Positions 1,379 to 12,178 of a stretch of DNA of 37,673 bases are shown here, piece after piece. The DNA comes from Oscillibacter sp. MSJ-31 (lineage in GTDB: Bacteria > Actinomycetota > Coriobacteriia > Coriobacteriales > QAMH01), in NCBI GenBank assembly GCA_963621315.1, contig CAVFDV010000003.1, forward strand, positions 1 through 37,673, given 5' to 3'. A program made the translations under genes and the position numbers. The notes beneath the pieces were generated by a model, which had not been told where the DNA came from, did not search any database, and saw nothing but the letters and a program-made list of their open reading frames with translations. Position 1 is the first letter of the stretch. Each line of letters starts with the position of its first letter.

Positions 1379-1410
1379 GCCGCCGCGCACGCCACAACAC
1401 GCCGGCGAAA
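1379..1410. repeat. 32-bp perfect direct repeat, copy A (GCCGCCGCGCACGCCACAACACGCCGGCGAAA)
   Basis: Identical to 4250-4281. Contains CACGCC-ACAA-CACGCC (hexamer direct repeat at 10-bp spacing) and the palindrome CGCCGGCG. Confidence 0.9.
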
Positions 1411-1508
1411 AGCCGTTTCCGCACGTTTCCGCGCAACATGGCCCCCTCGCGTGCGGCGCGCATGGCCCTTTTACCATGCAATCCCCCGGGCGCCCTCCCG
1501 CGCCTCCG

Positions 1509-3977
1509 CTAGCATGCTTTCCCGCGCCGCCGGAAAAGCAACGCCCAGGCAAACGCGGCGGCGACGAGGGCGGCGCCTGCGGCGGTGAACGCGATGGTGC
1601 CCGTGCCGCCGGCAAGCGGCATGACCCATTCCTTGTAGTTGGCCACGGAATAGGCGCCTGTCGCGGCGTCTTTCTTGAAGGCCGGCGGCAAATCGCCCAC
1701 GACGGAGCCGGAGGCGTCTTTTTGCGCGTGTGCGACGATCTCGACGGTCTGCGTCGCGGAGTCGGCAGCCACCAGCCATTGCCCGTGCGGCAGACGGTAG
1801 CCCGCAGGCGCAGCCGTCTCGACCAGCATGTACTGCCCCGTTTCCAGCTCGCCGAAATCCGCCTTGCCATCCGCTTGCGTGGTGACGGTGGCAAGGGGAG
1901 CATCCACGTCCCAGCAGCAGCCCGCATCGTTTGAGGCCGTCCAGGAGTGGTCCGCCGCGCTCGTGTGCGCAAGGTCGGCGCATGCATAAAGGGCAAATGT
2001 CGCACCCGCCAGCGCCGTCGAAGCGTCTTCTCCCGTCTTCGTGAACGAGAAGGAGACGGTGGGCGATTTCTCGTTTGCCAGCTTGTAGCCGCTTGCATAT
2101 TCCCCGTCGAAATCCGCCGCCCCGTCGCCGTCCGGGGTCACGGTCACAACGCCGGCGTCCGCATCGACCGCAACCGTCCAGGTGTTTTCCGCCTTCACAT
2201 AGCCTCTGGGCGCGGCAGTCTCGGTCAGCGTGTAGCTGCCGTGGTAGAGCTGCCCGAAATCCACGAGGCCTGCCGCTGCGGAGGTCGCGTTTTTATCCAC
2301 GGCCACAGCCTCAGCAACGCCCGAGACGCCTTTCAAGTTGAATATCGCGCCCGCCAGCACCGTGGCCGCGCTTTCCGCATCCACCTTGGTGAAGGAAAAC
2401 GGCGCCGTCTTCGGCGTGTTTGCCAGCTTGAAGCCCTCCGTATAGCTGCCGTTGAACCCCGCATCGCCGCCTGCAGGCGTCACGACGACGTTCTTGCCCG
2501 ACGAGGTGGAGGTGACCGTGACCGTCCACGGGCCGCCGCTTGCCGCATATCCGCCAGGCGCCGAATTCTCCGTCAAGGTGTAGGTGCCCGCCTCCAAATT
2601 GCCGAAATCCACCTTGCCGTCTGTGCCGGATGTGGCCGTCCCGACGGTTGTCTCGCCGTTTTTCAGCGTGAAAGCCGCTCCCGCGAGGGCGCCGCCGGCC
2701 GAATCGGTCTTTGTGAACGAGAACGGCACGGTCGGGTAGTTCGCGAGCTTGTAGCTGCCCACTCCGGTCCCCGAGAAGTTCACCGAGCCGGATGCCGTGC
2801 TCACGCTCGCGCTCCATGTAGGCGGCACGACGGTGTCGGCGCTCGCCGTCACCGTGACCGTCCACGAGCCGGCCAGACGCGCGTATCCGCTTGCCGCAGA
2901 TGTTTCCGTCAGGGTGTAGGTCCCCGCCCCGAGGATGCCGAAATTCACCAAGCCGTTCGCATCCGAGGTCGCCGTCCCCACGACGTTCGTCCCCTGCTTC
3001 AGTTGAAACGTCGCACCGGCCAACGCCGCGCCCGATTCGTTTGTCTTGGTGAAATAGAAACTTCGGTTCAAGGTCACCGTATCGCCGTTTCCCATCTCCA
3101 GCAGGGTGTCGGTGGCCGTGGTGAAGGTATACGAGGCTCCCGAATACAAGGCTATGACGGAATTGGTCCACGCTTCCGCCACGTCGGTCGTCGTCGCGGT
3201 TTTCACGTAATATTCGGCATGGTACGTGTCATACACCCTCTCGGTCAGGTTCTTGCCATATGCCACCGCCTGCAGGGGGTCTGTGCCCTTCGACCCCATG
3301 GCCGGATCCACCTTCTCTTGGGCTGCGCCCTTCTTGTACGTCATGCAAAAGAAGTAGAGATTCGACTTCAAGCCGGACACGGCCGTGCTCGTGCCGTTGT
3401 AGGTGTAGGAGAATTTCCACCTCACGTCGCCGGTGGACTCGAGCGCCGTCCTGTTCTTGTTGAAAAACTTCGACACCCTGGCGACCTTGTTGCTGGCCGT
3501 GGTGGTGTCGCCGAATGCGTAGACGGTGATTGTCAGATCGACGCTTTTCCCGTTGTACCACCCCACGTTGGTGAACTTCACCCATGCGTTCTTGTTCTTC
3601 GCCCAATTAGGCCCCGTGATCGTCCAAGCCGCCGTGCTTCCATTGTTCAGGCAGGCGGTCAGGTTTCCCGCGGTCCACCCCGACTGGGTCGTCACGCTGG
3701 TGCCCGACCCATTCCACTTGGGGGAAAACCCATACGCCTGCGATATCTTGAAGTTGTTCTTGGCGCTGATTTTGTACCTGCTGGAGGTAAGGGCCGCCTG
3801 GCTTTGGTGGTCGCCGGTAAGCGACAGCACTCCAAACACCCCGCCCAGCGAAACCGCCAGGGCGAGCACTACCACTGCCGCACGTCGAAAGCGGCGCCGC
3901 GTGCCTGCGCCGCGCGAAAACGCGAAACAGCGTTTGGGCGAATCCGCACGGCGCGGCGCACGGGGAGAAGCGTTCAC
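1509..3977 (-). CDS. Sortase-anchored surface adhesin with four SpaA/Cna-B-like repeats
   Basis: The ORF ends at TAG 1509. It has four repeats of the pattern SFTKTD..AL.GA.F.L....TATS..G...FG.L..GTYTLTE...P.GY. The N-terminus has an Arg-rich n-region plus hydrophobic helix (RRRFRRAAVVVLALAV). The C-terminus has MPLAGG, then a hydrophobic helix, then an RRRGK tail. I take GTG 3977 as the start (GGAGG 7 nt upstream); the ORF-track start GTG 4007 is the alternative. Confidence 0.85.
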   Translation of the reverse strand: MNASPRAPRRADSPKRCFAFSRGAGTRRRFRRAAVVVLALAVSLGGVFGVLSLTGDHQSQAALTSSRYKISAKNNFKISQAYGFSPKWNGSGTSVTTQSGWTAGNLTACLNNGSTAAWTITGPNWAKNKNAWVKFTNVGWYNGKSVDLTITVYAFGDTTTASNKVARVSKFFNKNRTALESTGDVRWKFSYTYNGTSTAVSGLKSNLYFFCMTYKKGAAQEKVDPAMGSKGTDPLQAVAYGKNLTERVYDTYHAEYYVKTATTTDVAEAWTNSVIALYSGASYTFTTATDTLLEMGNGDTVTLNRSFYFTKTNESGAALAGATFQLKQGTNVVGTATSDANGLVNFGILGAGTYTLTETSAASGYARLAGSWTVTVTASADTVVPPTWSASVSTASGSVNFSGTGVGSYKLANYPTVPFSFTKTDSAGGALAGAAFTLKNGETTVGTATSGTDGKVDFGNLEAGTYTLTENSAPGGYAASGGPWTVTVTSTSSGKNVVVTPAGGDAGFNGSYTEGFKLANTPKTAPFSFTKVDAESAATVLAGAIFNLKGVSGVAEAVAVDKNATSAAAGLVDFGQLYHGSYTLTETAAPRGYVKAENTWTVAVDADAGVVTVTPDGDGAADFDGEYASGYKLANEKSPTVSFSFTKTGEDASTALAGATFALYACADLAHTSAADHSWTASNDAGCCWDVDAPLATVTTQADGKADFGELETGQYMLVETAAPAGYRLPHGQWLVAADSATQTVEIVAHAQKDASGSVVGDLPPAFKKDAATGAYSVANYKEWVMPLAGGTGTIAFTAAGAALVAAAFAWALLFRRRGKAC
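1758..3062 (-). repeat. Four tandem SpaA-like domain-encoding repeats inside the adhesin gene
   Basis: Protein repeats start near aa 316, 428, 536 and 652 of the 832-aa ORF-track translation, with recurring FTKT/LAGA/GTYTLTE/GY motifs. Confidence 0.7.
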
Positions 3978-4096
3978 CGAGCCGCCTCCGCCTTGGAGGC
4001 GCGACACGGGAAAGCGGCTATGAAGCCCCCCCCCCCCCTCAGATTCTTCTCCATGCGCTGCATCGCGGCGTTCCCCCTCTTCATCACGTTTGCCAT
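3974..4096 (-). other. 40-codon upstream ORF that contains the poly-G tract; its stop overlaps the adhesin GTG
   Basis: Translation is MANVMKRGNAAMQRMEKNLRGGGGFIAAFPCRASKAEAAR. The frame opens after TAA 4120-4118. TGA 3976-3974 overlaps GTG 3977-3975. Whether it is translated is unknown. Confidence 0.25.
4026..4038 (-). repeat. Homopolymer: G13 on the coding strand (C13 on plus) upstream of the adhesin
   Basis: Counted directly: 5 C at 4026-4030 plus 8 C at 4031-4038. Confidence 0.95.
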
Positions 4097-4249
4097 ATCC
4101 GCTGGTAGTCGCGCACCTTACCCTCTGCCGCAGGGCAAATCAAGCATGTTGGGGAAATTTTCGCGGCGCCTGCATATCCGCCCGTACGATCTGCCGATGT
4201 GCAGGTCGGGCGGGCACCTTGGCCGCACGACCCCGGGCACGCAAAGCCA

Positions 4250-4281
4250 GCCGCCGCGCACGCCACAACACGCCGGCGAAA
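4250..4281. repeat. 32-bp perfect direct repeat, copy B
   Basis: Identical to 1379-1410. Lies between the ackA stop (4355) and the adhesin start. Confidence 0.9.
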
Positions 4282-4354
4282 GGCTGCGGGAAGGACGCAG
4301 AAAACGCGTACCGGGCGCGCGGAGCACGCAAAACGCCCCCGCGAAAAGGCGCCG

Positions 4355-5626
4355 CTACACCGCCCAGGGGTCGCTCAAGTCCGCGCCGCCTGCCACGAGG
4401 GCCACGTCGCGGGCGATCTCGGCCTCCTCGTCGGTGGGGATGACCAGCACCTTCACCGCCGCGCGGTCCGTGGATATGAGGCGTTCGACGTTGTCCTCGC
4501 TGTAGTTGCGCTGCTCGTCGATCTCGATGCCGAAGGGCTCGAGTCCGCGGAAGATGAGCCGCCGCGCGTAGGCGTCGTGCTCGCCCACGCCGGCCGTGAC
4601 CACGATGGCGTCCACGCCCGCCAGCTCGAAGGCGTAGGCGCCGATCATGCGGCGTATGGAGAAAAGGAAGATGTCGTAGGCAAGCTCTGCCTGCGTGTCG
4701 CCGAAGCGTATGACCTCCTTCAGGTCGCGCAGGTCCCCGCTCGTGCCCGACACGCCCAGAAAGCCGGACTCGCGGTTCAGCACGCGGTCCATCTCGGCTG
4801 CGCTCAGGCCCTCCTTTTCCATGATGGCCGTGATGATGGCCGGGTCCACCGAGCCGGAGCGCGTGTTCATCATGATGCCGTCGAGCGGCGTGTAGCCCAT
4901 CGACGTGTCCATGCTGTAGCCGTGGTCGATGGCGCAGATGGAGGCGCCCGCGCCCAGATGGCAGGTGATCATCTTCAGCTCGCGCAGATCCGCGCCCAGA
5001 AAGCCGGCCGCGCGGCGCGAGACGTACTTGTGCGAGATGCCGTGGAAGCCGAACTTGCGGATGTGGTATTTCTCGTAGTAGCGGTACGGGATGGGGTAGA
5101 TGTAGGTACGGCGCGGCATGGTCTGGTGAAAGGCCGTGTCGAAGGCCGCGACCTGCAGCGCGCGGGGAAAGGCCTCGCGGCAGCGCTCGATCACCTTCAG
5201 CGCATAGGGGTTGTGCAGGGGCGCGAGGTCGGCGTAGCGCTCGATCACCTCGACCACGTGCGCGTCTATGGCCACGGAGCTGTTGAACTCGTCGCCGCCG
5301 TGCGCGATGCGGTGCCCCACGGCGTCCACCTCTGAAAGCGAGGAGACAGGCGCCGCCGGCCCGTGCACGAGCGCGTCGATGGCCAAGGACAGCGCCGCGT
5401 CGTAGTCGGGCGCCTCCACCTCGCGCACCCCGTCGGCGGCGGCGTCCGGGTCTGCGCACGACCAGTGCAGGCGCGCGTTGCCCGTGCCGATGTTTTCCAC
5501 CACGCCCTTTGCCAGCGACTTGCTCTCGGGCAGGGTACGCCCCTCGAGCGCCTCGCCCACGCTGGCCGCGTCGAAGAGCTTGAACTTCAGCGAGCTCGAG
5601 CCCGCGTTGAACACGAGTATCTTCAC
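4355..5626 (-). CDS. ackA: Acetate kinase
   Basis: Motifs KILVFNAGSSSLKF, GHRIAHGG, FDTAFHQTMP, FGFHGISH and CHLGAGASICAI. I take GTG 5626 as the start (VKILVFNAGSS); it overlaps the upstream TGA (GTGA). The ORF-track start is 5680. Confidence 0.93.
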   Translation of the reverse strand: MKILVFNAGSSSLKFKLFDAASVGEALEGRTLPESKSLAKGVVENIGTGNARLHWSCADPDAAADGVREVEAPDYDAALSLAIDALVHGPAAPVSSLSEVDAVGHRIAHGGDEFNSSVAIDAHVVEVIERYADLAPLHNPYALKVIERCREAFPRALQVAAFDTAFHQTMPRRTYIYPIPYRYYEKYHIRKFGFHGISHKYVSRRAAGFLGADLRELKMITCHLGAGASICAIDHGYSMDTSMGYTPLDGIMMNTRSGSVDPAIITAIMEKEGLSAAEMDRVLNRESGFLGVSGTSGDLRDLKEVIRFGDTQAELAYDIFLFSIRRMIGAYAFELAGVDAIVVTAGVGEHDAYARRLIFRGLEPFGIEIDEQRNYSEDNVERLISTDRAAVKVLVIPTDEEAEIARDVALVAGGADLSDPWAV

Positions 5627-6476: not shown

Positions 6477-6574
6477 GCCCGAATCGCGCGGGGCATCTGC
6501 CGCGAGTTGCGGGGTGATGCGGCGCGGGGGCGGGATGCGGGAAAAGGCGCGGGCCGCGCGGAGAAAGGCGCAGG

Positions 6575-6622
6575 GTGCGGGTGCGGGTGCGGGTGCGGGT
6601 GCGGGTGCGGGTGCGGGTGCGG
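6575..6622 (+). repeat. (GTGCGG)8 hexanucleotide microsatellite; nine G3 tracts with 3-nt loops across 6573-6624
   Basis: Eight perfect tandem units counted directly. Intergenic, between divergent genes. Confidence 0.95.
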
Positions 6623-6665
6623 GGCTGTGGGACTACAGGGTATCCGCCGCGCCGCAAGCCGAAGC

Positions 6666-6694
6666 TTGCTTTTCCCACATACAAGACATACTCT
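6666..6694 (+). promoter_or_regulatory. Candidate sigma-70-type promoter TTGCTT-N17-TACTCT for the ABC ATPase operon
   Basis: -35 at 6666-6671, exactly 17 nt of spacer, -10 at 6689-6694. About 120 nt upstream of ATG 6814. Confidence 0.4.
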
Positions 6695-6813
6695 CACATC
6701 CACTTGCCGCGCATAGGCTCCGGGGAAGCAGGCGGGAAAAGGCCTCGGGCGAAACGCAGGCGAAGATGCAGGTGAAAGCGCACGGCCGGGCACGTGGCGA
6801 AGGGAGGCGCAAG

Positions 6814-7722
6814 ATGCCGTCCATATCGTTTAGGGACGTGGGCTTCGTCTACGAAGACGGCGACGAGGCCTACCGCGCCCTCGAACACGTCGACCTCGAG
6901 ATAGGCGACGGCGAGCTCGTCTGCCTCGTGGGGCATTCGGGCTGCGGCAAATCCACCCTGCTCAGGCTGCTGGCAGGCCTTGCCGTGCCTACGGAGGGCA
7001 CGATCGAGATAGACGGGCGCCGGGTGCAAGGGCCAGGCCCGGACCGCTCGATCGTCTTCCAGAACTACTCGCTGTTCCCCTGGCAGACGGCGCTGAAAAA
7101 CGTCGAATTCGCCTTGCGTAAAACACATGGGGACATGCCCAAGGCCGAGGCGCGCGCAAAGGCGCTGGACTTGCTTGCGCAGGTGAAGATGGAAGAAGCG
7201 GCCAAGCGCTACCCCTTCCAGCTGTCCGGCGGGATGCGCCAGCGCGTGGCCATCGCGCGCGCCCTGGCGGTGGACGCCCCCGTCATGCTGCTCGACGAGC
7301 CCTTCGGCGCGCTCGACCCGCTCATCCGCGAGCAGCTCCAGACCCTGCTGCTCGAGTTGTGGGACGCGGGCGGAGGCGATGCCGGCAAAACCGGTGCCGC
7401 GGCTTCGGAAAACCGCAGCCTGGACGGTAAAGGCCCAAGCGGGGACGCGCCCGCCGGAGGGGGCGGCGGCAAGAGGCGGCGCACCATCGTCTTTGTCACG
7501 CACGACATCGACGAGGCCGTGCGCCTGGCCAGCCGCATCGTCTTCATGGAGCCCGGGCGCATCGTGGCCGGCTTCACCTTGGACCCGGCCCGCGACCGCA
7601 GCCCAGAAAAGCTCGCCGCCGACGAGGCGACCATGCAGGTGAAACGCGAGGTGCTGGCGCTGTTCGAGGCCAGCTCGCGACACGGCGGCGGCGACACGTA
7701 CACATCCGAGAAAGCGCGCTAG
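6814..7722 (+). CDS. ABC transporter ATP-binding protein (NitT/TauT-like NBD) with a low-complexity insert
   Basis: Walker A GHSGCGKST, Q-loop FQNYSLFPW, signature LSGGMRQR, Walker B VMLLDEPF and H-loop VFVTHD. ATG 6814 has GGGAGG upstream. No permease or binding-protein gene is adjacent. Confidence 0.9.
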   Translation: MPSISFRDVGFVYEDGDEAYRALEHVDLEIGDGELVCLVGHSGCGKSTLLRLLAGLAVPTEGTIEIDGRRVQGPGPDRSIVFQNYSLFPWQTALKNVEFALRKTHGDMPKAEARAKALDLLAQVKMEEAAKRYPFQLSGGMRQRVAIARALAVDAPVMLLDEPFGALDPLIREQLQTLLLELWDAGGGDAGKTGAAASENRSLDGKGPSGDAPAGGGGGKRRRTIVFVTHDIDEAVRLASRIVFMEPGRIVAGFTLDPARDRSPEKLAADEATMQVKREVLALFEASSRHGGGDTYTSEKAR

Positions 7723-7766
7723 GCGCCACGACAAGGGAACTACGGCAAGAGGAAGGGAGTTTCACC

Positions 7767-8507
7767 ATGTCGAGCGGTCTTGCGGTCTGCCTCGTATGCG
7801 GGCAGCCCCTCGAGTACTTCGAGACGGGCAAAGAGGTCGTCTGCCACATATGCGGCAAAGAGGAGGTCGGGCATTCCATCTGCATGGACGGGCACTACGT
7901 GTGCGACGCGTGCCACAGGAGCCAGGGCGTCGACTTCATCTTGGAGCGCTGCGCGGCGTCTGGCTCGAAAAACCCCATCGCCCTCGCGCAAGAACTGATG
8001 GCCGACAAGTCCATCTTCCCCAACGGCCCGGAGCACCATACCCTCGTGGGCGCGTCGCTTCTGTGCGCCTACCGCAACGCGGGCGGCGACATCGACCTGG
8101 ACGCGGCGCTGGCCGAGCTGCGCCGGCGCTCGTTGCAAGTGCCGGGCGGCACCTGCGGTTTCTGGGGCACCTGCGGGGCGGCCACGAGCGCCGGGCAATG
8201 GTGGTCGATTGTGGCGGGCTCGACGCCCATGACACGCGGGCCGTGGGCGCAAACGCAGCGCCTGACCTCGCGCATTCTGGGACGCCTCGCCGACATGGGA
8301 GGCCCGCGCTGCTGCAAGCGCACGGGCTTCACCGCCCTGCTCGAAGGCGCGGCCTTTGCAAAGGAGCTGCACGGCGTCGAGATGGAGCTGCCCGAAAAGA
8401 CGGTCTGCGCCTTTTTCACCCGCAACGCCGAGTGCCTGAAAGGCAAGTGCCCCTACTTTCCCGCCCGCTTGGCAAAAGATGGGAAACAGGCAGGGCTGCT
8501 AGAATGA
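7767..8507 (+). CDS. Cys-rich protein with an N-terminal zinc-ribbon; possibly DUF5714-like (recalled from memory, unverified)
   Basis: Starts CLVCG..(x16)..CHICG..C..GHYVCDACH. Later motifs are PEHHTLVGASLLCAYRN, GGTCGFWGTCGA and RCCKR. GGAAGGGAG lies 8 nt before ATG 7767. Confidence 0.6.
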   Translation: MSSGLAVCLVCGQPLEYFETGKEVVCHICGKEEVGHSICMDGHYVCDACHRSQGVDFILERCAASGSKNPIALAQELMADKSIFPNGPEHHTLVGASLLCAYRNAGGDIDLDAALAELRRRSLQVPGGTCGFWGTCGAATSAGQWWSIVAGSTPMTRGPWAQTQRLTSRILGRLADMGGPRCCKRTGFTALLEGAAFAKELHGVEMELPEKTVCAFFTRNAECLKGKCPYFPARLAKDGKQAGLLE

Positions 8508-8522
8508 GCGCGAACATGAGGC

Positions 8523-8539
8523 GGACGGCACTGCCGTCC
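8523..8539 (+). terminator. GC-rich hairpin without a U-tract, at the junction between the high-GC and low-GC genes
   Basis: GGACGGC-ACT-GCCGTCC (7-bp stem, 3-nt loop), followed by CGAAAAAAC rather than Ts. Confidence 0.3.
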
Positions 8540-8558
8540 CGAAAAAACAGGTGGCCAT

Positions 8559-9617
8559 ATGAACCTCAGCGACAATGCAGCCGAGCTAGCAGGCCGGCTG
8601 CAAGAGATTTGCGGCAGATACGACGGGCAGGAACCGCGCGCCTACAGCGAGGACATCACGCGCCTTGCCGAGACCATCGATTTAATCGGAAGCTCCGCCG
8701 AGGCCGATGCGCTTTTCCGCGAAATACTCCAATGCGACCAAGCGCCCGAGGAGATCCGCTACGCGACCCTCTATCTTGCCTCGGTGTTTCTCAGGCACCG
8801 CGGCGCAATGGACGAACTCGGAAAGCTTTTCGAGGATTTCGGCAGCACGTATCGGGCTCACCCGACTTACCAGCTGATCAACCTCACCTTCCGGGAGGCA
8901 AAAGGCCTTTCAGACCAAACGGAAGCGGCCGCTTACGCCTATCAAGCGCAAGAGCTCGCCAAGCGCAACCCAGACGATGCCGGCGTGCTGCACCTCTATG
9001 CCATCATCGCTTGCGATTGGCAAGAACAGGTGCTCTACTCCGATGAGCTGCTCGACGAAGACGCCATCGATTCAGCGCTCGAAGCCGTGAAGCGGGCGCT
9101 GTCCCTAAGTCCCGGATATGCAAAATTCTACGCCACGAGAGCGCGCCTACACATGCTCAAAGGCGAATGGTCGGCAGCACGGACCGACCTGGGCAACGCC
9201 ATCAAATACGAGAGAAGAGACAACTCCTCCTATGTTGTCAACGTCTCGAACTACCAGTATCTCAAGACCAAGGTCTTGCTCGAGGAAAACAGGCGGCGCG
9301 TCGAGAAAAACGCCGACAGCATCAACGATGAACTCGAGAAGAAGTTGCGCAAAATGGAGGACAGCACCGTCAGCACCATCGAGATGATCAGTTTTTTCGC
9401 AGGAGTGATCAGCCTCGTTGCCTGCAGCGTCTCAATCCTCTCGGGCCAGCCCTTCAACGAGGCCGCGCGCCTCATCATCGTGTTGATGGGCGCTTTGCTC
9501 GAGGCCTTTTCCGCGTTTTCCCTGCTCCTCACCCGGCGCAAGGTCGAGATGCGGCACGTTGTCGTCATTGCTTTGGGGGCCTGCGCCATCGTGGGCGCCC
9601 TTGTGCTGGGAAGGTGA
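8559..9617 (+). CDS. TPR-like / coiled-coil protein with three C-terminal transmembrane helices
   Basis: 352 aa. The first ~230 aa are helical-repeat-like (..AVKRALSLSPGYAKFYATRARLHMLKGEWSAARTDLGNAI..). Then a charged coiled coil (EENRRRVEKNADSINDELEKKLRKMED). Three hydrophobic helices follow (about aa 275-295, 303-324, 333-351). AGGTGG precedes ATG 8559. Confidence 0.7.
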   Translation: MNLSDNAAELAGRLQEICGRYDGQEPRAYSEDITRLAETIDLIGSSAEADALFREILQCDQAPEEIRYATLYLASVFLRHRGAMDELGKLFEDFGSTYRAHPTYQLINLTFREAKGLSDQTEAAAYAYQAQELAKRNPDDAGVLHLYAIIACDWQEQVLYSDELLDEDAIDSALEAVKRALSLSPGYAKFYATRARLHMLKGEWSAARTDLGNAIKYERRDNSSYVVNVSNYQYLKTKVLLEENRRRVEKNADSINDELEKKLRKMEDSTVSTIEMISFFAGVISLVACSVSILSGQPFNEAARLIIVLMGALLEAFSAFSLLLTRRKVEMRHVVVIALGACAIVGALVLGR

Positions 9618-9621
9618 GGGC

Positions 9622-10656
9622 ATGTTCTCTTTCACCGACAGAGGCGCCAGGGTAAACGAGGATTTCGCCCGTACGGGGACAGGACAAGACGGCGCTCCTT
9701 TCGGCGTGCTCCTCGACGGGGCAAGCGATTTATGCGGATTCAAGCTCTTCTCCGATATTTGGGGATCTGATGCGCGTTGGCTCTCGCACACTACGGGCAA
9801 TGCCGCCTGCGCCGAATTGGAGCGGGGCGCATCAATCGAGGACGCGCTCGAGGCCGGCGTAAGCACGGCGCGGCGCGAACTGGAGGAGCGGACCGGACAA
9901 AAAATCGACGACATCGAACCCGATGCCATCCCTTCTGCCACTGTTGCGGTTGCGCGAGCCTTGCCGGCGGTTGTCGAGCTTGCCTGGCTGGGCGACTCCC
10001 CCCTCGTCGTCAAGTTTGCAGATAGCGGACGCGCCGATGCATTCGTCGACAGCCTCAGAGCCGATGCGAAAGAACAGGCCACGCGCACCCATGCAACCGT
10101 AGTCGTGCTTTCCTCGAACGACCTTGCCGCCCTTGACGCGCAGTCCAAGCAGGCCATGGTTGAGAGAAGCCGCGGCCAAAACATGTCGGGAGCGGAGAAG
10201 CGCGAGGCGATTTCTGACATCCTCAAGAAAAACAGGCAGATGATCAACAAGCCGGGCGGTTATTGGAACCTCGACCCCACAGGCAAAGGCCTGCCCCATT
10301 TGAACAAGGTCACAGTCGCGCCTGAGGACATCGAGGCGATAGCCGCTTTTTCCGATGGCTTCTATGCGGCGTTCGAGACGTACAAGATAACGGAACTGGA
10401 CGCCTTTCTCGCGTCGGCAACCGAAGCAGACAGCGCGGGCAAAGCCGACGCAAGACATTGCGCAAGCGAGGCAGGCTGCACAAACCCAATGGGCGAGACA
10501 TGCGCCACGGCGTTACTCGAGCAAATCCGGGCCGTTGAAGGCGCCGACCCCGATTTCAACCGTTTCACACGCTTCAAAATCAGCGACGACGCCTCCATGT
10601 TCCTGCTTTCCCGCGCAGATATCGACCGGGGTGCCGCGAGCCGACAAGTTTCCTGA
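9622..10656 (+). CDS. PP2C-family (PP2C_2-like) phosphatase domain protein
   Basis: Ordered motifs VNED, LLDGASD, WLGDSP, FSDGF and ISDDAS match the metal-binding Asp motifs of PP2C-type phosphatases. ATG 9622 lies 4 nt after the upstream TGA. Confidence 0.6.
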   Translation: MFSFTDRGARVNEDFARTGTGQDGAPFGVLLDGASDLCGFKLFSDIWGSDARWLSHTTGNAACAELERGASIEDALEAGVSTARRELEERTGQKIDDIEPDAIPSATVAVARALPAVVELAWLGDSPLVVKFADSGRADAFVDSLRADAKEQATRTHATVVVLSSNDLAALDAQSKQAMVERSRGQNMSGAEKREAISDILKKNRQMINKPGGYWNLDPTGKGLPHLNKVTVAPEDIEAIAAFSDGFYAAFETYKITELDAFLASATEADSAGKADARHCASEAGCTNPMGETCATALLEQIRAVEGADPDFNRFTRFKISDDASMFLLSRADIDRGAASRQVS

Positions 10657-10789
10657 GGCCCGCACGACGGGCGCAGCGCATCGCCGGCCGTCGGAGAAAG
10701 ACCCGGGCAGCGAAATCCAAACTTGGAAGACCTGCGCGCCCCTAGAAGCTGCGGGGTGCCGAGCCGGCGCGCAAGCCCGGGCCTGCCTT

Positions 10790-12178
10790 CTAGCCTATGC
10801 CCAGGTAGGGCAAGAGGTTCGTGACGAGGATGATCAACACGAGCACGGGCGCCACGTACTTGATCATGAACGCCCACGCGCCGGCCGCCCCGAAGGTCGA
10901 GGACTGGCGGATCTCGTCGATGATGGCCTTCGGCTTGATGATGAAGCCGACGAAGATGCACGTGCAGATGGCCACGATAGGCATGAGCACCGAGTTCGAG
11001 ATGAAGTCGAAGAAGTCGAGCAACGTCGAGCCTTCGCCCAGCGGCTGGATGAACGAAAGGCCGCTGTAGCCCGCGTTGATCACGATGCCGCAGACCACGA
11101 GAAACGCCGTGAAGACGCCGAGCGACTTCTTGCGCGACCAGCTCGTCGCGTCCTGGATGTTGGAGACGCATGCCTCGGTCAGGCTGATCGCGCTGGTCAG
11201 GGCCGCGAAGAGCACGAGCAAGAAGAAGACGAAGCCCACGATCTGGCCCGCAAAGCCCATGTCGGAGAAGACCTGCGGCAAGGTGACGAACATGAGCGAC
11301 GGGCCTGCCTTGGCCGCCACCGCATCAGCCGAGCCCAGCGCGATGAAGGCGCCCGGCACGATCATGATGCCCGCGAGGAAGCTGACGATGAAGTCGAAGC
11401 TGACGATGCGCGCGGCGCTCGTGGGCAGGTTGTCCTTTTTATCCACGTACGAGCCGTAGGTGATCATGATGGCCATGGCCAGCGAGAGGCTGTAGAACAT
11501 CTGCCCCAGCGCGTTGATGACCAGCTCCGGGCTGAACTTCGAGAAGTCGGGGAGGAGATAGTAGGCCACGCCGTCCATCGCGCCCGGCTGCACGACGGTG
11601 AAGATGGCGATGGCGAGCGCCATGACGATGAGGGCGGGCATCATCACGAAGTTGGCCTTCTCGATGCCGTTTTTCACCCCGAGGGCCACGACGCCGACGG
11701 TGATGGCCATGAAGACGAGCATGAAGACCTGGCTGGCCACGGGCGAGGTGATGAAGCCGGTGAAGAAGGTGCCGGCCTCGCCGCCCACGTCCGCAATGCT
11801 GGCCGCCGAGTTCGTGACGTAGGCCGTCAGGTACTTCGTGACCCAGCCGCCGATGATGCAATAGTACGGCGTGATAATGAAGGGCACGGCCACCGCCAGA
11901 AAGCCGATGGGCGCATAGCGTTTGCCGTAGGAGCGAAACGCGCTGAAGACCGACAGGCGCGTCTTGCGCCCGAAGGCGATCTCGAGCAGAAGCAGGCTCA
12001 GGCCGAAGGTGAAGACGAGCACGAAGTAGGTGAGCAGGAAGGTGCCGCCGCCGTACTTCGCCGCCAGATAGGGAAAGCGCCAGAGGTTGCCCAGCCCGAC
12101 CGCCGATGCGGCAGCCGAGAGGATGAAGGCCCACTTGCCGGACCATTTCGCGCGCTGCGGTGCTTCTTGTGTTGCCAT
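10790..12178 (-). CDS. Sodium-dependent transporter, SNF (neurotransmitter:sodium symporter) family
   Basis: Motif SAAASAVGLGNLWRFPYLAAKYGGGTFLL and about 11-12 hydrophobic segments. GAGGAG lies 7 nt before ATG 12178. Confidence 0.92.
   Translation of the reverse strand: MATQEAPQRAKWSGKWAFILSAAASAVGLGNLWRFPYLAAKYGGGTFLLTYFVLVFTFGLSLLLLEIAFGRKTRLSVFSAFRSYGKRYAPIGFLAVAVPFIITPYYCIIGGWVTKYLTAYVTNSAASIADVGGEAGTFFTGFITSPVASQVFMLVFMAITVGVVALGVKNGIEKANFVMMPALIVMALAIAIFTVVQPGAMDGVAYYLLPDFSKFSPELVINALGQMFYSLSLAMAIMITYGSYVDKKDNLPTSAARIVSFDFIVSFLAGIMIVPGAFIALGSADAVAAKAGPSLMFVTLPQVFSDMGFAGQIVGFVFFLLVLFAALTSAISLTEACVSNIQDATSWSRKKSLGVFTAFLVVCGIVINAGYSGLSFIQPLGEGSTLLDFFDFISNSVLMPIVAICTCIFVGFIIKPKAIIDEIRQSSTFGAAGAWAFMIKYVAPVLVLIILVTNLLPYLGIG

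What the first reader, a model, noticed from the sequence alone, without database searches (positions are those of the whole stretch)
3974..4096. 13-nt poly-G tract inside an upstream ORF that is stop/start-coupled (GTGA) to a surface adhesin: candidate phase-variation switch
The plus-strand C13 run (4026-4038) is G13 on the coding strand, about 50 nt upstream of the adhesin start GTG 3977. A 40-codon upstream ORF reads through the tract (..NLRGGGGFIA..). It starts at ATG 4096, has further in-frame ATGs at 4084, 4063 and 4054, and has GAGGGGG 9 nt before ATG 4063. It ends at TGA 3976-3974, which overlaps GTG 3977-3975, and that GTG has GGAGG 7 nt upstream. Changing the tract length changes the outcome. 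G14 or G11 fuses the upstream ORF in frame to the adhesin ORF. G12 gives TAG straight after the tract. G13, as assembled, gives exact termination-reinitiation geometry. Long homopolymers next to surface-protein genes are the classic slipped-strand contingency-locus signature in Neisseria, Haemophilus, Campylobacter and Mycoplasma. I do not know of it being described for this kind of high-GC Gram-positive adhesin.
Basis: partly seen in the sequence, partly recalled or inferred. Interest (0 to 1): 0.78.

Follow-up and report, generated by a model that had tools for sequence, protein, structure and literature searches.

The report
Poly-G on/off switch in adhesin gene
A run of 13 G's at the very start of a surface-adhesin gene in an uncultured gut actinobacterium (class Coriobacteriia) is most likely a slippage-prone on/off switch, of a kind already shown in bifidobacteria but not reported for this group in the papers I could search.

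Summary
C13 at 4026-4038 is G13 on the coding strand, and it is the only homopolymer longer than 6 nt in 37.7 kb (about 0.003 expected).

It is the core of a conserved 5' cassette: Shine-Dalgarno (SD) site, ATG, 5-8 codons, poly-G, then a flank that pairs with the tract. I found this cassette at seven more loci in two congeneric genomes (G8-G10). A related cassette with a different flank occurs at nine Collinsella loci (G8-G10). All precede surface-protein genes.

In three cassettes the ATG is in frame with the long ORF. In the other 14 it is exactly one G off. An orthologue without a tract (L002) reads in frame from the same ATG.

So the "upstream ORF" is best read as the true 5' end of the adhesin gene. 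Only G11 or G14 joins ATG 4063 to the 822-aa SpaA-repeat adhesin. The assembled G13 is an OFF (or low) phase.

The GTGA stop/start overlap with its SD is conserved only in the three cassettes downstream of ackA. Reinitiation there is possible but untested.

The same design is published for Bifidobacterium breve pilus genes and for Gardnerella, so this is a new member of a known kind. Tract-length variation within the window's own species could not be tested, because the two closest genomes lack the whole locus.

The parts
4026..4038 (-). Hypermutable poly-G tract (G13 as assembled), the core of the switch.
   Evidence: It is the only homopolymer longer than 6 nt, with 0.0033 runs of 13 or more expected. 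Homologous tracts of G8-G10 sit at the same position in seven related cassettes.
4061..4079 (-). Shine-Dalgarno-like GAGGGGG (4079-4073) plus ATG 4063-4061, the proposed true start codon of the adhesin.
   Evidence: GCGATGC is invariant in the W/L003/L004 alignment. ATG is invariant in all 9 cassettes. The ATG lies 16-26 nt upstream of the tract in 17 of 17 cassettes. The tract-less orthologue L002 reads in frame from this ATG.
3974..4063 (-). Leader ORF as assembled: 29 codons from ATG 4063 (40 from ATG 4096), ending at TGA 3976-3974. This is the OFF(-1) reading.
4006..4025 (-). Conserved 3' flank CTTCATAGCCGCTTTCCCGT. Together with the 3' G's of the tract it is predicted to form a hairpin: stem GGCU/AGCC, then G-tract paired with CUUUCCC.
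   Evidence: TTCA..GC is invariant. The W fold is -23.7 kcal/mol with z = -3.66. The motif is read in three different frames by the ON states of different cassettes, so the conservation is at nucleotide level.
4018..4020 (-). TAG that ends the second OFF frame (G12 or G15), two codons after the tract.
3974..3989 (-). GGAGG (3989-3985), a 7-nt spacer, then GTGA (3977-3974). This is an internal candidate start overlapping the OFF-frame stop.
   Evidence: CGGTGA is invariant in W, L003 and L004. It is not conserved as a start in the other cassettes.
1509..3977 (-). Adhesin ORF, 822 aa counted from GTG 3977. It has four SpaA domains and a weak pilin D1-like hit.
   Evidence: Homologues at 50-55 % identity are in L001 and L002.
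3819..3881 (-). Hydrophobic core of the signal peptide (AAVVVLALAVSLGGVFGVLSL), preceded by an Arg-rich n-region. It lies downstream of both candidate starts.
   Evidence: read directly from the translation.
1512..1622 (-). C-terminal sorting-signal-like segment: ..MPLAGGTG, a hydrophobic stretch, then RRRGKAC.
   Evidence: One search shows it conserved in L001. The NCBIfam SpaH/EbpB model aligns to its C-terminal end, but below the curated cut-off.
4115..4143 (-). Candidate promoter, inferred only: TTGATT (4143-4138), a 17-nt spacer, TAAGGT (4120-4115). It would place the tract inside the transcript.
   Evidence: Read. The GCGGCAG(A)GGGTA(A/G)G(G/A)T block is shared with L004. It fails the consensus scan.
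4250..4284 (.). Upstream copy of a 35-nt direct repeat that bounds the 2.87-kb adhesin-plus-switch island.
   Evidence: family D5, 97 % identity. It is single-copy in the adhesin-less relatives L201 and L202.
1379..1413 (.). Downstream copy of the 35-nt direct repeat.

Best explanation
The G13 run is the mutable core of a 5' switch cassette placed about 8 codons into the coding sequence of a cell-wall-anchored SpaA-repeat adhesin. The host is an uncultured Coriobacteriia bacterium.

Proposed mechanism:
1. Translation starts at ATG 4063, which has the SD GAGGGGG.
2. Slipped-strand mispairing during replication adds or removes G's.
3. Only tract lengths of 3n+2 (G11, G14) keep the ATG in frame with the 822-aa adhesin ORF. 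That gives a precursor with a 29-residue N-terminal extension ahead of the signal peptide.
4. G13, as assembled, ends in a 29-codon peptide at TGA 3976-3974. G12 ends at TAG 4020-4018.
5. A clonal population would therefore hold ON and OFF cells for this adhesin.

What is shown: the anatomy, the conservation of the cassette, tract-length differences between related loci, and the ON and OFF frames. What is inferred: switching in real time, its rate, and the expression phenotype.

In the G13 phase some adhesin may still be made by initiation or reinitiation at GTG 3977, which has a good SD and lies upstream of the signal peptide.
For: 1. The tract is a statistical outlier in a genome that otherwise avoids runs of 7 or more.
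2. A homologous cassette (SD, ATG, 5-8 codons, Gn, CTT(T)CAYNGC) was found at seven more loci in two congeneric metagenome-assembled genomes (MAGs). It precedes SpaA-type or DUF285/BspA-type surface-protein genes, with G8, G9 and G10 tracts.
3. Frame status varies. L003 (G10) and L001 (G10) are in frame for 588 and 877 aa. W, L004, L111, L137, L162 and L164 are each exactly one G from in-frame, in both directions.
4. L002, the orthologue of the L001/W adhesin in the other MAG, has no tract (GAAGGGGGCG) and reads in frame from the same ATG (MRQRLKGALHCRPRASR...). Its peptide matches the ON-frame peptide of W (LHSRFPVSR). This behaves like a locked-ON allele.
5. A DUF285 paralogue without a cassette has an ordinary SD-ATG and a short signal peptide.
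6. In all eight tract-bearing cassettes of this genus, both OFF frames stop within 2-18 codons after the tract.
7. An analogous cassette occurs in Collinsella at nine loci. Loci about 91 % identical carry G10 (in frame, L199) or G9 (out of frame, L200).
8. Experimental precedent exists for the same layout in B. breve (PMC9187656).
Against: - There is no read-level or same-species evidence that this particular tract varies. The two closest genomes (95-97 % nt identity) lack the whole locus.
- The transcription start site is unknown, and the promoter scan found nothing.
- GTG 3977 has a canonical SD and lies upstream of the complete signal peptide. The adhesin could therefore be made whatever the tract length, which would weaken the ON/OFF contrast.
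- 14 of 17 cassettes are assembled OFF. That could instead reflect RNA-level recoding or systematic homopolymer miscalls.
- MAG consensus lengths of G-runs are error-prone.
Confidence: 0.72

Rival explanations
1. Three-state switch with translational coupling. The ATG-initiated ORF is a leader.
- G14 or G11 gives a fusion.
- G13 or G10 ends the leader at UGA overlapping GUG 3977, so terminating ribosomes reinitiate and the adhesin is still made.
- Only G12 (early UAG, about 41 nt before the GUG) is truly OFF.
For: - CGGTGA and the upstream GG(A/G)GG are invariant or nearly so in the three cassettes downstream of ackA, within otherwise diverged sequence. Together with GCGATGC and the tract, these are the only invariant runs of 6 or more.
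- The signal peptide lies downstream of the GTG.
- In W, the SD of the GTG is predicted to sit in a GCGCCUCC/GGAGGCG hairpin that a leader-translating ribosome would open.
Against: - The five paralogous cassettes have CTGA, CTAG or TAGATGA at the aligned site, with no in-frame start. The shared feature is therefore an OFF-frame stop.
- The SD-sequestering hairpin is not conserved in L003 or L004.
- L001 has no internal SD-start, and the tract-less L002 reads through from the upstream ATG.
- Nothing here tests dependence of GTG initiation on leader translation.
Confidence: 0.25
2. RNA-level recoding. The long G run makes RNA polymerase stutter, or the ribosome slip, so every genotype yields a fixed mixture of in-frame and out-of-frame products. 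The tract would set a low constitutive level rather than act as a heritable ON/OFF switch.
For: - 14 of 17 cassettes are assembled out of frame. These include eight of nine Collinsella loci, seven at G9 where G10 is in frame.
- The G's are on the sense strand in all 17.
- A hairpin involving the tract is predicted in 10 of 10 cassettes, all with negative z-scores (W -3.66, Collinsella -2.44).
- The flank is conserved at nucleotide level in three reading frames.
Against: - Tract lengths do differ at DNA level between related loci, and in-frame alleles exist (L001, L003, L199).
- OFF states in the window's genus are both +1 and -1 from ON, which a directional recoding event would not need.
- In B. 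breve the same layout was attributed to replication slippage (PMC9187656).
- The two mechanisms are not exclusive.
Confidence: 0.12
3. The tract is irrelevant to expression. GTG 3977 is the only real start, the upstream ATG ORF is not translated, and the tract is a neutral or decaying remnant in the 5' UTR.
For: GTG 3977 has a good SD and spacing. The protein started from it has a full signal peptide.
Against: - A neutral 13-nt homopolymer is not expected in a genome with no other run longer than 6 nt.
- ATG, spacing, tract and flank are conserved at 8 loci in this genus. A cassette with the same ATG-tract spacing but a different flank occurs at 9 Collinsella loci.
- The Collinsella and L001 genes show no alternative SD-preceded start that I could see by reading the sequence.
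- L002 reads in frame from the ATG.
Confidence: 0.06
4. Sequencing or assembly artefact, such as a two-colour-chemistry poly-G artefact or a chimeric join.
For: Homopolymer lengths in short-read MAGs are unreliable. PMC9187656 documents Illumina problems at G-tracts.
Against: The tract is internal to a 37.7-kb window. Independent assemblies carry it at the same position with homologous flanks on both sides. Only the exact count is in doubt.
Confidence: 0.02

Closest known systems
Bifidobacterium breve UCC2003 pilus-gene G-tract switch (bbr_0113a/b, bbr_1889a/b; Penno et al. 2022, PMC9187656)
   Same: - The host is an actinobacterial gut commensal.
- A G10-G12-type tract lies on the sense strand at the very 5' end of a gene for a sortase-substrate surface protein.
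- A short ATG-initiated ORF (24 nt for bbr_0113a) is joined to the long ORF only at the right G number.
- The reference genome is assembled OFF.
- Such tracts occur at several loci and in several species of the genus.
   Different: - Here the gene stands alone, with no adjacent sortase or other pilin genes.
- The signal peptide lies downstream of the tract.
- The long ORF has its own SD-GTG overlapping the OFF-frame stop. The B. breve paper reports that the downstream ORFs lack both an SD and a signal peptide.
- The host class is Coriobacteriia.
- The cassette also serves DUF285/BspA-type proteins.
- No experimental data exist for this locus.
Poly-G/C contingency loci of Neisseria, Haemophilus and Campylobacter (e.g. 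lgt, pgtA, hpuA, hmbR; PMC2192423, PMC2193922, PMC3786947, PMC8355987)
   Same: An intragenic homopolymeric G/C tract near the 5' end of a surface-related gene. Frame-dependent ON/OFF states. Several such loci per genome.
   Different: Those are Gram-negative, lower-GC pathogens. Their tracts are not embedded in a shared conserved cassette with a tract-pairing flank. No overlapping internal restart codon is part of those systems, as far as I know.
Gardnerella spp. poly-G tract repertoire (bioRxiv 10.1101/2023.01.13.523976)
   Same: Actinomycetota. About 20 G/C tracts per genome, averaging 10 bp, often next to LPXTG or repeat-domain surface proteins. Variation between colony variants was observed.
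   Different: About 70 % of the Gardnerella tracts are in putative promoter regions. The window's tract is in the 5' coding sequence. The family and class also differ.
Translational coupling through overlapping stop/start codons (termination-reinitiation, ATGA/GTGA type; general knowledge)
   Same: GTGA overlap with an SD inside the upstream ORF, 7 nt before the restart codon.
   Different: Here the upstream ORF exists only in one of the three tract phases. Dependence of the downstream start on upstream translation is untested.

Membership tests
Simple-sequence-repeat (homopolymeric-tract) translational phase-variable locus | A homopolymer long enough to slip (7-8 or more G/C) and over-represented relative to the genome background. 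| tested here: met
   G13 is the only run longer than 6 nt. 0.0033 runs of 13 or more are expected.
Simple-sequence-repeat (homopolymeric-tract) translational phase-variable locus | The tract lies inside the coding sequence, so that length changes shift the frame between a full-length and a truncated product. | tested here: met
   In-silico G11-G15 series. Conserved SD-ATG upstream. In-frame relatives L001 and L003, and the tract-less in-frame L002.
Simple-sequence-repeat (homopolymeric-tract) translational phase-variable locus | Tract length is polymorphic among strains or within populations. | tested here: inconclusive
   - G13, G10 and G9 at the slot downstream of ackA in three congeneric species.
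- G8-G10 among paralogues.
- G10 against G9 in Collinsella loci 91 % identical.
- No conspecific copy of this locus was available: L201 and L202 lack it.
- No reads were available.
Simple-sequence-repeat (homopolymeric-tract) translational phase-variable locus | Reversible, high-frequency ON/OFF switching of the product. | not testable with these tools
   Needs cultures or reads, plus reporters.
Simple-sequence-repeat (homopolymeric-tract) translational phase-variable locus | The controlled gene encodes a surface or host-interaction factor. | tested here: met
   Four SpaA domains, a signal peptide and a sorting-signal-like C-terminus.
Bifidobacterium-type G-tract switch of sortase-dependent pilus clusters (PMC9187656) | The tract is in the first gene of a cluster that also holds other pilin genes and a dedicated sortase. 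| tested here: not met
   The next gene downstream is a PRC-barrel protein and the gene upstream is ackA. No sortase or pilin gene is adjacent.
Bifidobacterium-type G-tract switch of sortase-dependent pilus clusters (PMC9187656) | A short upstream ORF with SD and start codon. The long downstream ORF lacks its own SD and signal peptide. | tested here: not met
   The upstream part matches (SD plus ATG 4063). The downstream ORF, however, has GGAGG-N7-GTG and carries the signal peptide.
Bifidobacterium-type G-tract switch of sortase-dependent pilus clusters (PMC9187656) | Sense-strand G-tract of about 10-12 nt within the first few dozen nucleotides of the coding sequence. | tested here: met
   G13 begins 25 nt after ATG 4063.
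Translationally coupled gene pair (termination-reinitiation at overlapping stop/start) | An overlapping stop and start codon, with an SD inside the upstream ORF. | tested here: met
   GTGA at 3977-3974. GGAGG lies 7 nt upstream.
Translationally coupled gene pair (termination-reinitiation at overlapping stop/start) | The overlap is conserved across homologous loci. | tested here: inconclusive
   Present in 3 of 3 cassettes downstream of ackA. Absent as a start in 5 of 5 paralogous cassettes.
Translationally coupled gene pair (termination-reinitiation at overlapping stop/start) | Downstream translation depends on upstream translation. | not testable with these tools
   Needs reporters.

The most novel reading that the evidence does not exclude
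Gut Coriobacteriia, including the abundant genus Collinsella, may carry an undescribed multi-locus set of phase-variable genes built from portable 5' switch cassettes. In each cassette the G-tract is one arm of a conserved hairpin.

In the window's genus the flank is conserved at nucleotide level in all three reading frames. The Collinsella cassette has an unrelated flank that also pairs with the tract. This suggests a cis-acting structure that tunes slippage (of DNA or RNA), not just a bare homopolymer.

In the sub-family downstream of ackA, the conserved SD-GTGA would add a third, intermediate expression state through reinitiation.
Probability: 0.25. Interest if true: 0.65.

Novelty: new member of a known kind. 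Interest (0 to 1): 0.45.

Why it matters
Coriobacteriia such as Collinsella are common gut bacteria whose surface biology is little studied. If these poly-G cassettes switch, a single strain holds subpopulations with different adhesin and BspA-like protein repertoires. That matters in three ways.
- It affects colonisation and immune recognition.
- It affects how frameshifted "pseudogenes" in MAGs and isolate genomes should be annotated.
- It extends the Bifidobacterium and Gardnerella findings to a second class of Actinomycetota.

The conceptual gain is modest, because the mechanism itself is textbook.

Tried and rejected
- **Metagenome DNA scan.** Scanning metagenome contigs for the tract plus flank gave 13 hits, all chance matches. 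55 of the 61 genome-contig hits were also chance.
- **Protein searches.** The in-silico ON-state N-terminus of the adhesin found nothing among 5.8 billion proteins. Exact look-ups of AckA failed. The L003 N-terminus found only relatives at 54 % identity or less. The genus is therefore barely represented, and no conspecific tract alleles could be collected.
- **Closest genomes.** The two closest genomes were found through the PRC-barrel protein, but both lack the whole locus.
- **Rfam.** No family matched 3700-4400.
- **Promoter and terminator scan.** Nothing was found.
- **Folds of the leader.** Folds of about 125 nt are not better than shuffles (z -0.8 to +0.8). Only short tract-plus-flank folds show a consistent hairpin.
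- **SD-sequestering hairpin.** The hairpin over the SD of GTG 3977 is specific to W, so I did not use it as evidence for coupling.
- **Frameshift analogies.** I considered an analogy with prfB or dnaX programmed frameshifting at the SD-plus-stop. I dropped it because there is no slippery heptamer.
- **Column-wise pair counting.** I did not run this on alignment A3. The 1-nt indel (CTTTCAC against CTTCAC) misregisters the 5' arm.
- **G-quadruplex.** A quadruplex involving the SD G5 and the tract was considered but not tested.
Full report
**1. Observation**

On the minus strand the window reads ...ATGCAGCGCATGGAGAAGAATCTGA-G13-CTTCATAGCCGC..., with the G-run at 4038-4026.
- ATGs at 4096, 4084, 4063 and 4054 share one frame.
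- GAGGGGG ends 9 nt before ATG 4063.
- The ORF ends at TGA 3976-3974, which overlaps GTG 3977-3975.
- GGAGG lies 7 nt upstream of that GTG.

Rebuilding the locus with G11 to G15 confirms the frame predictions.
- G11 or G14 fuses the ATG frame to the long ORF.
- G12 or G15 stops at TAG two codons after the tract.
- G13 stops at the GTGA.

The run is the only homopolymer longer than 6 nt in 37,673 bases. The G/C run-length spectrum is 55 runs of 5, 7 runs of 6, none of 7-12, and one of 13. First-order Markov simulations expect 5.2 runs of 7 or more and 0.0033 runs of 13 or more. The genome therefore avoids long runs, and this one is a deliberate-looking exception.

**2. The gene and the organism**

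The downstream ORF (1509-3977, minus strand) has four SpaA/prealbumin-fold domains (PF17802, E=1e-71) and a weak pilin D1-like hit. It also has an Arg-rich n-region with a hydrophobic signal-peptide core. Its C-terminus is ...MPLAGGTG, a hydrophobic stretch, then RRRGKAC, and this is conserved in a 55 %-identical homologue.

It is a stand-alone gene. Upstream is acetate kinase (ackA). Downstream is a PRC-barrel protein. No sortase or other pilin gene is adjacent.

AckA is 91-93 % identical to proteins on contigs of a few MAGs. It is 78-80 % identical to MAGs labelled Coriobacteriales, and about 65 % identical to Eggerthellales and Adlercreutzia. The host is therefore an uncultured member of the Coriobacteriia. 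Several of the closest MAG records carry names that do not fit this, such as Ruthenibacterium lactatiformans and Acidaminococcaceae.

**3. The tract belongs to a conserved cassette**

Downstream of ackA in two congeneric MAGs (about 88-94 % nt identity in flanking genes) the same arrangement recurs. L003 has G10 and L004 has G9.

A pattern scan of 185,579 species genomes found true relatives only in these two MAGs. One of them carries the cassette on four contigs. A protein-guided scan added two more, L162 and L164. L161 is probably the continuation of L137.

All eight loci of this genus share the same layout: an SD, an ATG, 5-8 codons, Gn, then CTT(T)CAYNGC and a pyrimidine-rich stretch (alignment A3). 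The invariant columns are the ATG, the tract and TTCA..GC.

The genes they precede are either SpaA adhesins (W, L001) or DUF285/BspA-like leucine-rich-repeat proteins (L003, L004, L111, L162, L164; L137's own contig ends too early to see its gene).

**4. Frames**

I scored each cassette from its conserved ATG.
- L003 (G10) and L001 (G10) are in frame for 588 and 877 aa.
- W (G13) needs G14 or G11.
- L004 (G9) needs G10. A second ATG at -43 is in frame at G9.
- L111 (G10) needs G11 or G8.
- L137 (G8) needs G9.
- L162 and L164 (G10) need G9.

Every out-of-frame copy is exactly one G from in-frame, and both directions occur. In all eight cassettes both OFF frames stop within 2-18 codons after the tract.

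The most telling relative is L002, the orthologue of the L001/W adhesin in the second MAG. It has no tract (GAAGGGGGCG). It reads in frame from the same ATG as MRQRLKGALHCRPRASR... and continues to the signal peptide. Its peptide matches L001 (MRQRLRGGGFHCRPRASR) and the ON-frame peptide of the window (..GGGGLHSRFPVSR..). This fits a locked-ON allele. It shows that the ATG upstream of the tract is a real start and that the region through the tract is coding.

Conversely, a DUF285 paralogue without a cassette (L163) has a plain AAGGAGG-ATG and a short signal peptide. The cassette is therefore an add-on module.

**5. Interpretation**

The locus is a classic intragenic homopolymer switch, assembled here one G short of ON.

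I could not test switching directly. The adhesin's N-terminal domain has no relative in the large protein collection. The metagenome scan gave only chance hits. The two closest genomes (L201 and L202, 95-97 % nt identity) lack the entire locus.

**6. The GTGA overlap**

In the three-way alignment of the cassettes downstream of ackA, three things stand out. GCGATGC (the start), the tract and CGGTGA are the only invariant runs of 6 or more. GG(A/G)GG precedes the GTG in all three. The signal peptide lies downstream. Initiation or reinitiation at GTG 3977 in the G13 phase is therefore plausible.

At the aligned position the other five cassettes have CTGA (three), CTAG or TAGATGA, with no in-frame start. 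The feature common to all cassettes is thus a stop for the -1 frame. The GTG may be a by-product of an NTGA stop.

The hairpin that would sequester the SD of GTG 3977 in the window (GCGCCUCC/GGAGGCG) is not conserved in L003 or L004. I rate the three-state coupling model at about 0.25.

**7. A nucleotide-level element next to the tract**

The flank CTT(T)CAYNGCCG is read in different frames by the ON states of different cassette sub-families.
- CAY-NGC-CGY in W, L001 and L002.
- TCA-CNG-CCG in L003 and L004.
- TTC-AYN-GCY in L111, L137, L162 and L164.

Its conservation is therefore not at protein level. Short folds of tract plus flank give the same architecture in 10 of 10 cassettes. The last G's and GGC(U) form the 5' arm. 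(A/G)GCC and a pyrimidine run form the 3' arm.

The window's copy is the strongest, at -23.7 kcal/mol with z = -3.66. All ten z-scores are negative, and most are individually weak. The Collinsella cassette has an unrelated flank, yet it also pairs its tract with a downstream CCCGCCGCCC (z = -2.44).

This is suggestive but unproven. The copies are not independent, and G-runs pair readily with any pyrimidine-rich stretch. The role of such a hairpin is open. It could stabilise slipped DNA intermediates, support RNA-level recoding, or control translation.

**8. Wider distribution**

Six Collinsella species representatives carry GAGAGGAG-N7-ATG, 8 codons, then G9 (G8 once). This sits ahead of a DUF285 gene whose product starts with a Flp-like leader (KGQSTVEYVLIIAIIVL). 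The in-frame length is G10.

A Logan contig has G10 and is called in frame (P0125, L199). A 91 %-identical ENA contig has two tandem genes, each with a G9 cassette. Members of the 90 % protein cluster have different called N-termini, as expected from frame changes.

A 25-29 % GC Bacilli MAG has G8-G9 between TTGACT and TATACT upstream of three DUF285 genes. That is a promoter-spacer position.

**9. Comparison with what is known**

The layout is essentially that of B. breve UCC2003 bbr_0113a/b and bbr_1889a/b. There, a short SD-ATG ORF and a G-tract precede a long pilin ORF. G-tracts of 10-12 nt are tabulated for related pilus loci in B. longum. Maximum-depth sequencing measured replication slippage. 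Engineered in-frame strains made pili. Such tracts occur in pilus clusters of several Bifidobacterium species (PMC9187656).

Gardnerella genomes hold about 20 G/C tracts of about 10 bp, many next to LPXTG-type proteins (bioRxiv 10.1101/2023.01.13.523976).

Full-text searches for Collinsella or Coriobacteriia together with phase variation, slipped-strand or homopolymer terms found nothing relevant. That library is incomplete.

This locus differs from the B. breve system in four ways.
- It has no pilus operon.
- The signal peptide lies downstream of the tract.
- It has an internal SD-GTG overlapping the OFF-frame stop.
- It has a shared, portable cassette with a tract-pairing flank.

**10. Verdict**

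This is a new member of a known kind, in a class where the papers I could search do not report it. My confidence in the slipped-strand ON/OFF model is about 0.72. Interest is 0.45.

Noticed in passing
window 1379-1413 and 4250-4284; L201 4859-4893; L202 145-179: The adhesin gene with its switch and promoter region is a 2.87-kb island bounded by 35-nt direct repeats (97 % identical). Two genomes 95-97 % identical in the flanks have ackA followed directly by the PRC-barrel gene, with a single copy of the 35-mer. The adhesin therefore also varies by presence or absence. The island contains no integrase.
   Followed up: partly
L003 7390-7700; L004 2350-2860; L156 5975-6202; L157 2484-2800; L010 7400-7608: The slot between ackA and the PRC-barrel gene holds different cargo in congeneric species: a SpaA adhesin (window), a DUF285 protein (L003, L004), or an AAA_14/DUF4143 ATPase (L156, L157). 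In the congeners the slot begins with 2-3 direct copies of GGAAAAATGTGA about 30 nt apart. These are absent from the window.
   Followed up: partly
L172, L178, L183, L184, L197, L198 (about 150-250 nt upstream of the match); L199 305-314; L200 1110-1118 and 2060-2068: Collinsella species carry a poly-G cassette (ATG, 8 codons, G8-G10) at the start of DUF285/BspA-like genes. The products begin with a Flp-pilin-like leader (KGQSTVEYVLIIAI). G10 is in frame. Eight of nine loci are assembled out of frame. One contig has two tandem cassette-bearing genes.
   Followed up: partly
L193 1088-1096; L195 29-37; L196 405-412: In a 25-29 % GC Bacilli MAG (RGIG2961), G8-G9 tracts sit between TTGACT and TATACT, about 40 nt upstream of the ATG of three DUF285 genes. 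This is a promoter-spacer type of tract in front of the same protein family.
   Followed up: no
L002 2861-2890: The orthologous adhesin in MAG CAVAWX01 has an interrupted, non-slippery sequence (GAAGGGGGCG) in place of the tract. It is in frame from the cassette ATG, which looks like a locked-ON allele.
   Followed up: yes
L111 (reverse strand), about 290 nt downstream of the tract: There is an extra frameshift inside the signal-peptide coding region, at a T5 run (GTTTTTCC against CTTTTCC in L003). This copy would need two corrections to be expressed. It is either a pseudogene or an assembly error.
   Followed up: no
window 6490-10790: About 4.3 kb, including an ABC-transporter ATPase, is missing from the congeneric loci L003, L010, L156 and L157, which jump from window position ~6490 to ~10790. 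The closer relative L201 shares the part up to 8468.
   Followed up: no
L001/L003 (CAVECB01), L002/L004 (CAVAWX01), L009, L010: The public MAG records that hold these Coriobacteriia-like contigs are titled Ruthenibacterium lactatiformans, Acidaminococcaceae bacterium, Bacteroidaceae bacterium or simply 'bacterium'. These are probably mislabelled or mixed bins.
   Followed up: no
whole window: G/C runs of 7-12 nt are completely absent, where a first-order Markov model expects about 5 runs of 7 or more. This suggests genome-wide selection against slippery homopolymers, with the switch as the exception.
   Followed up: yes
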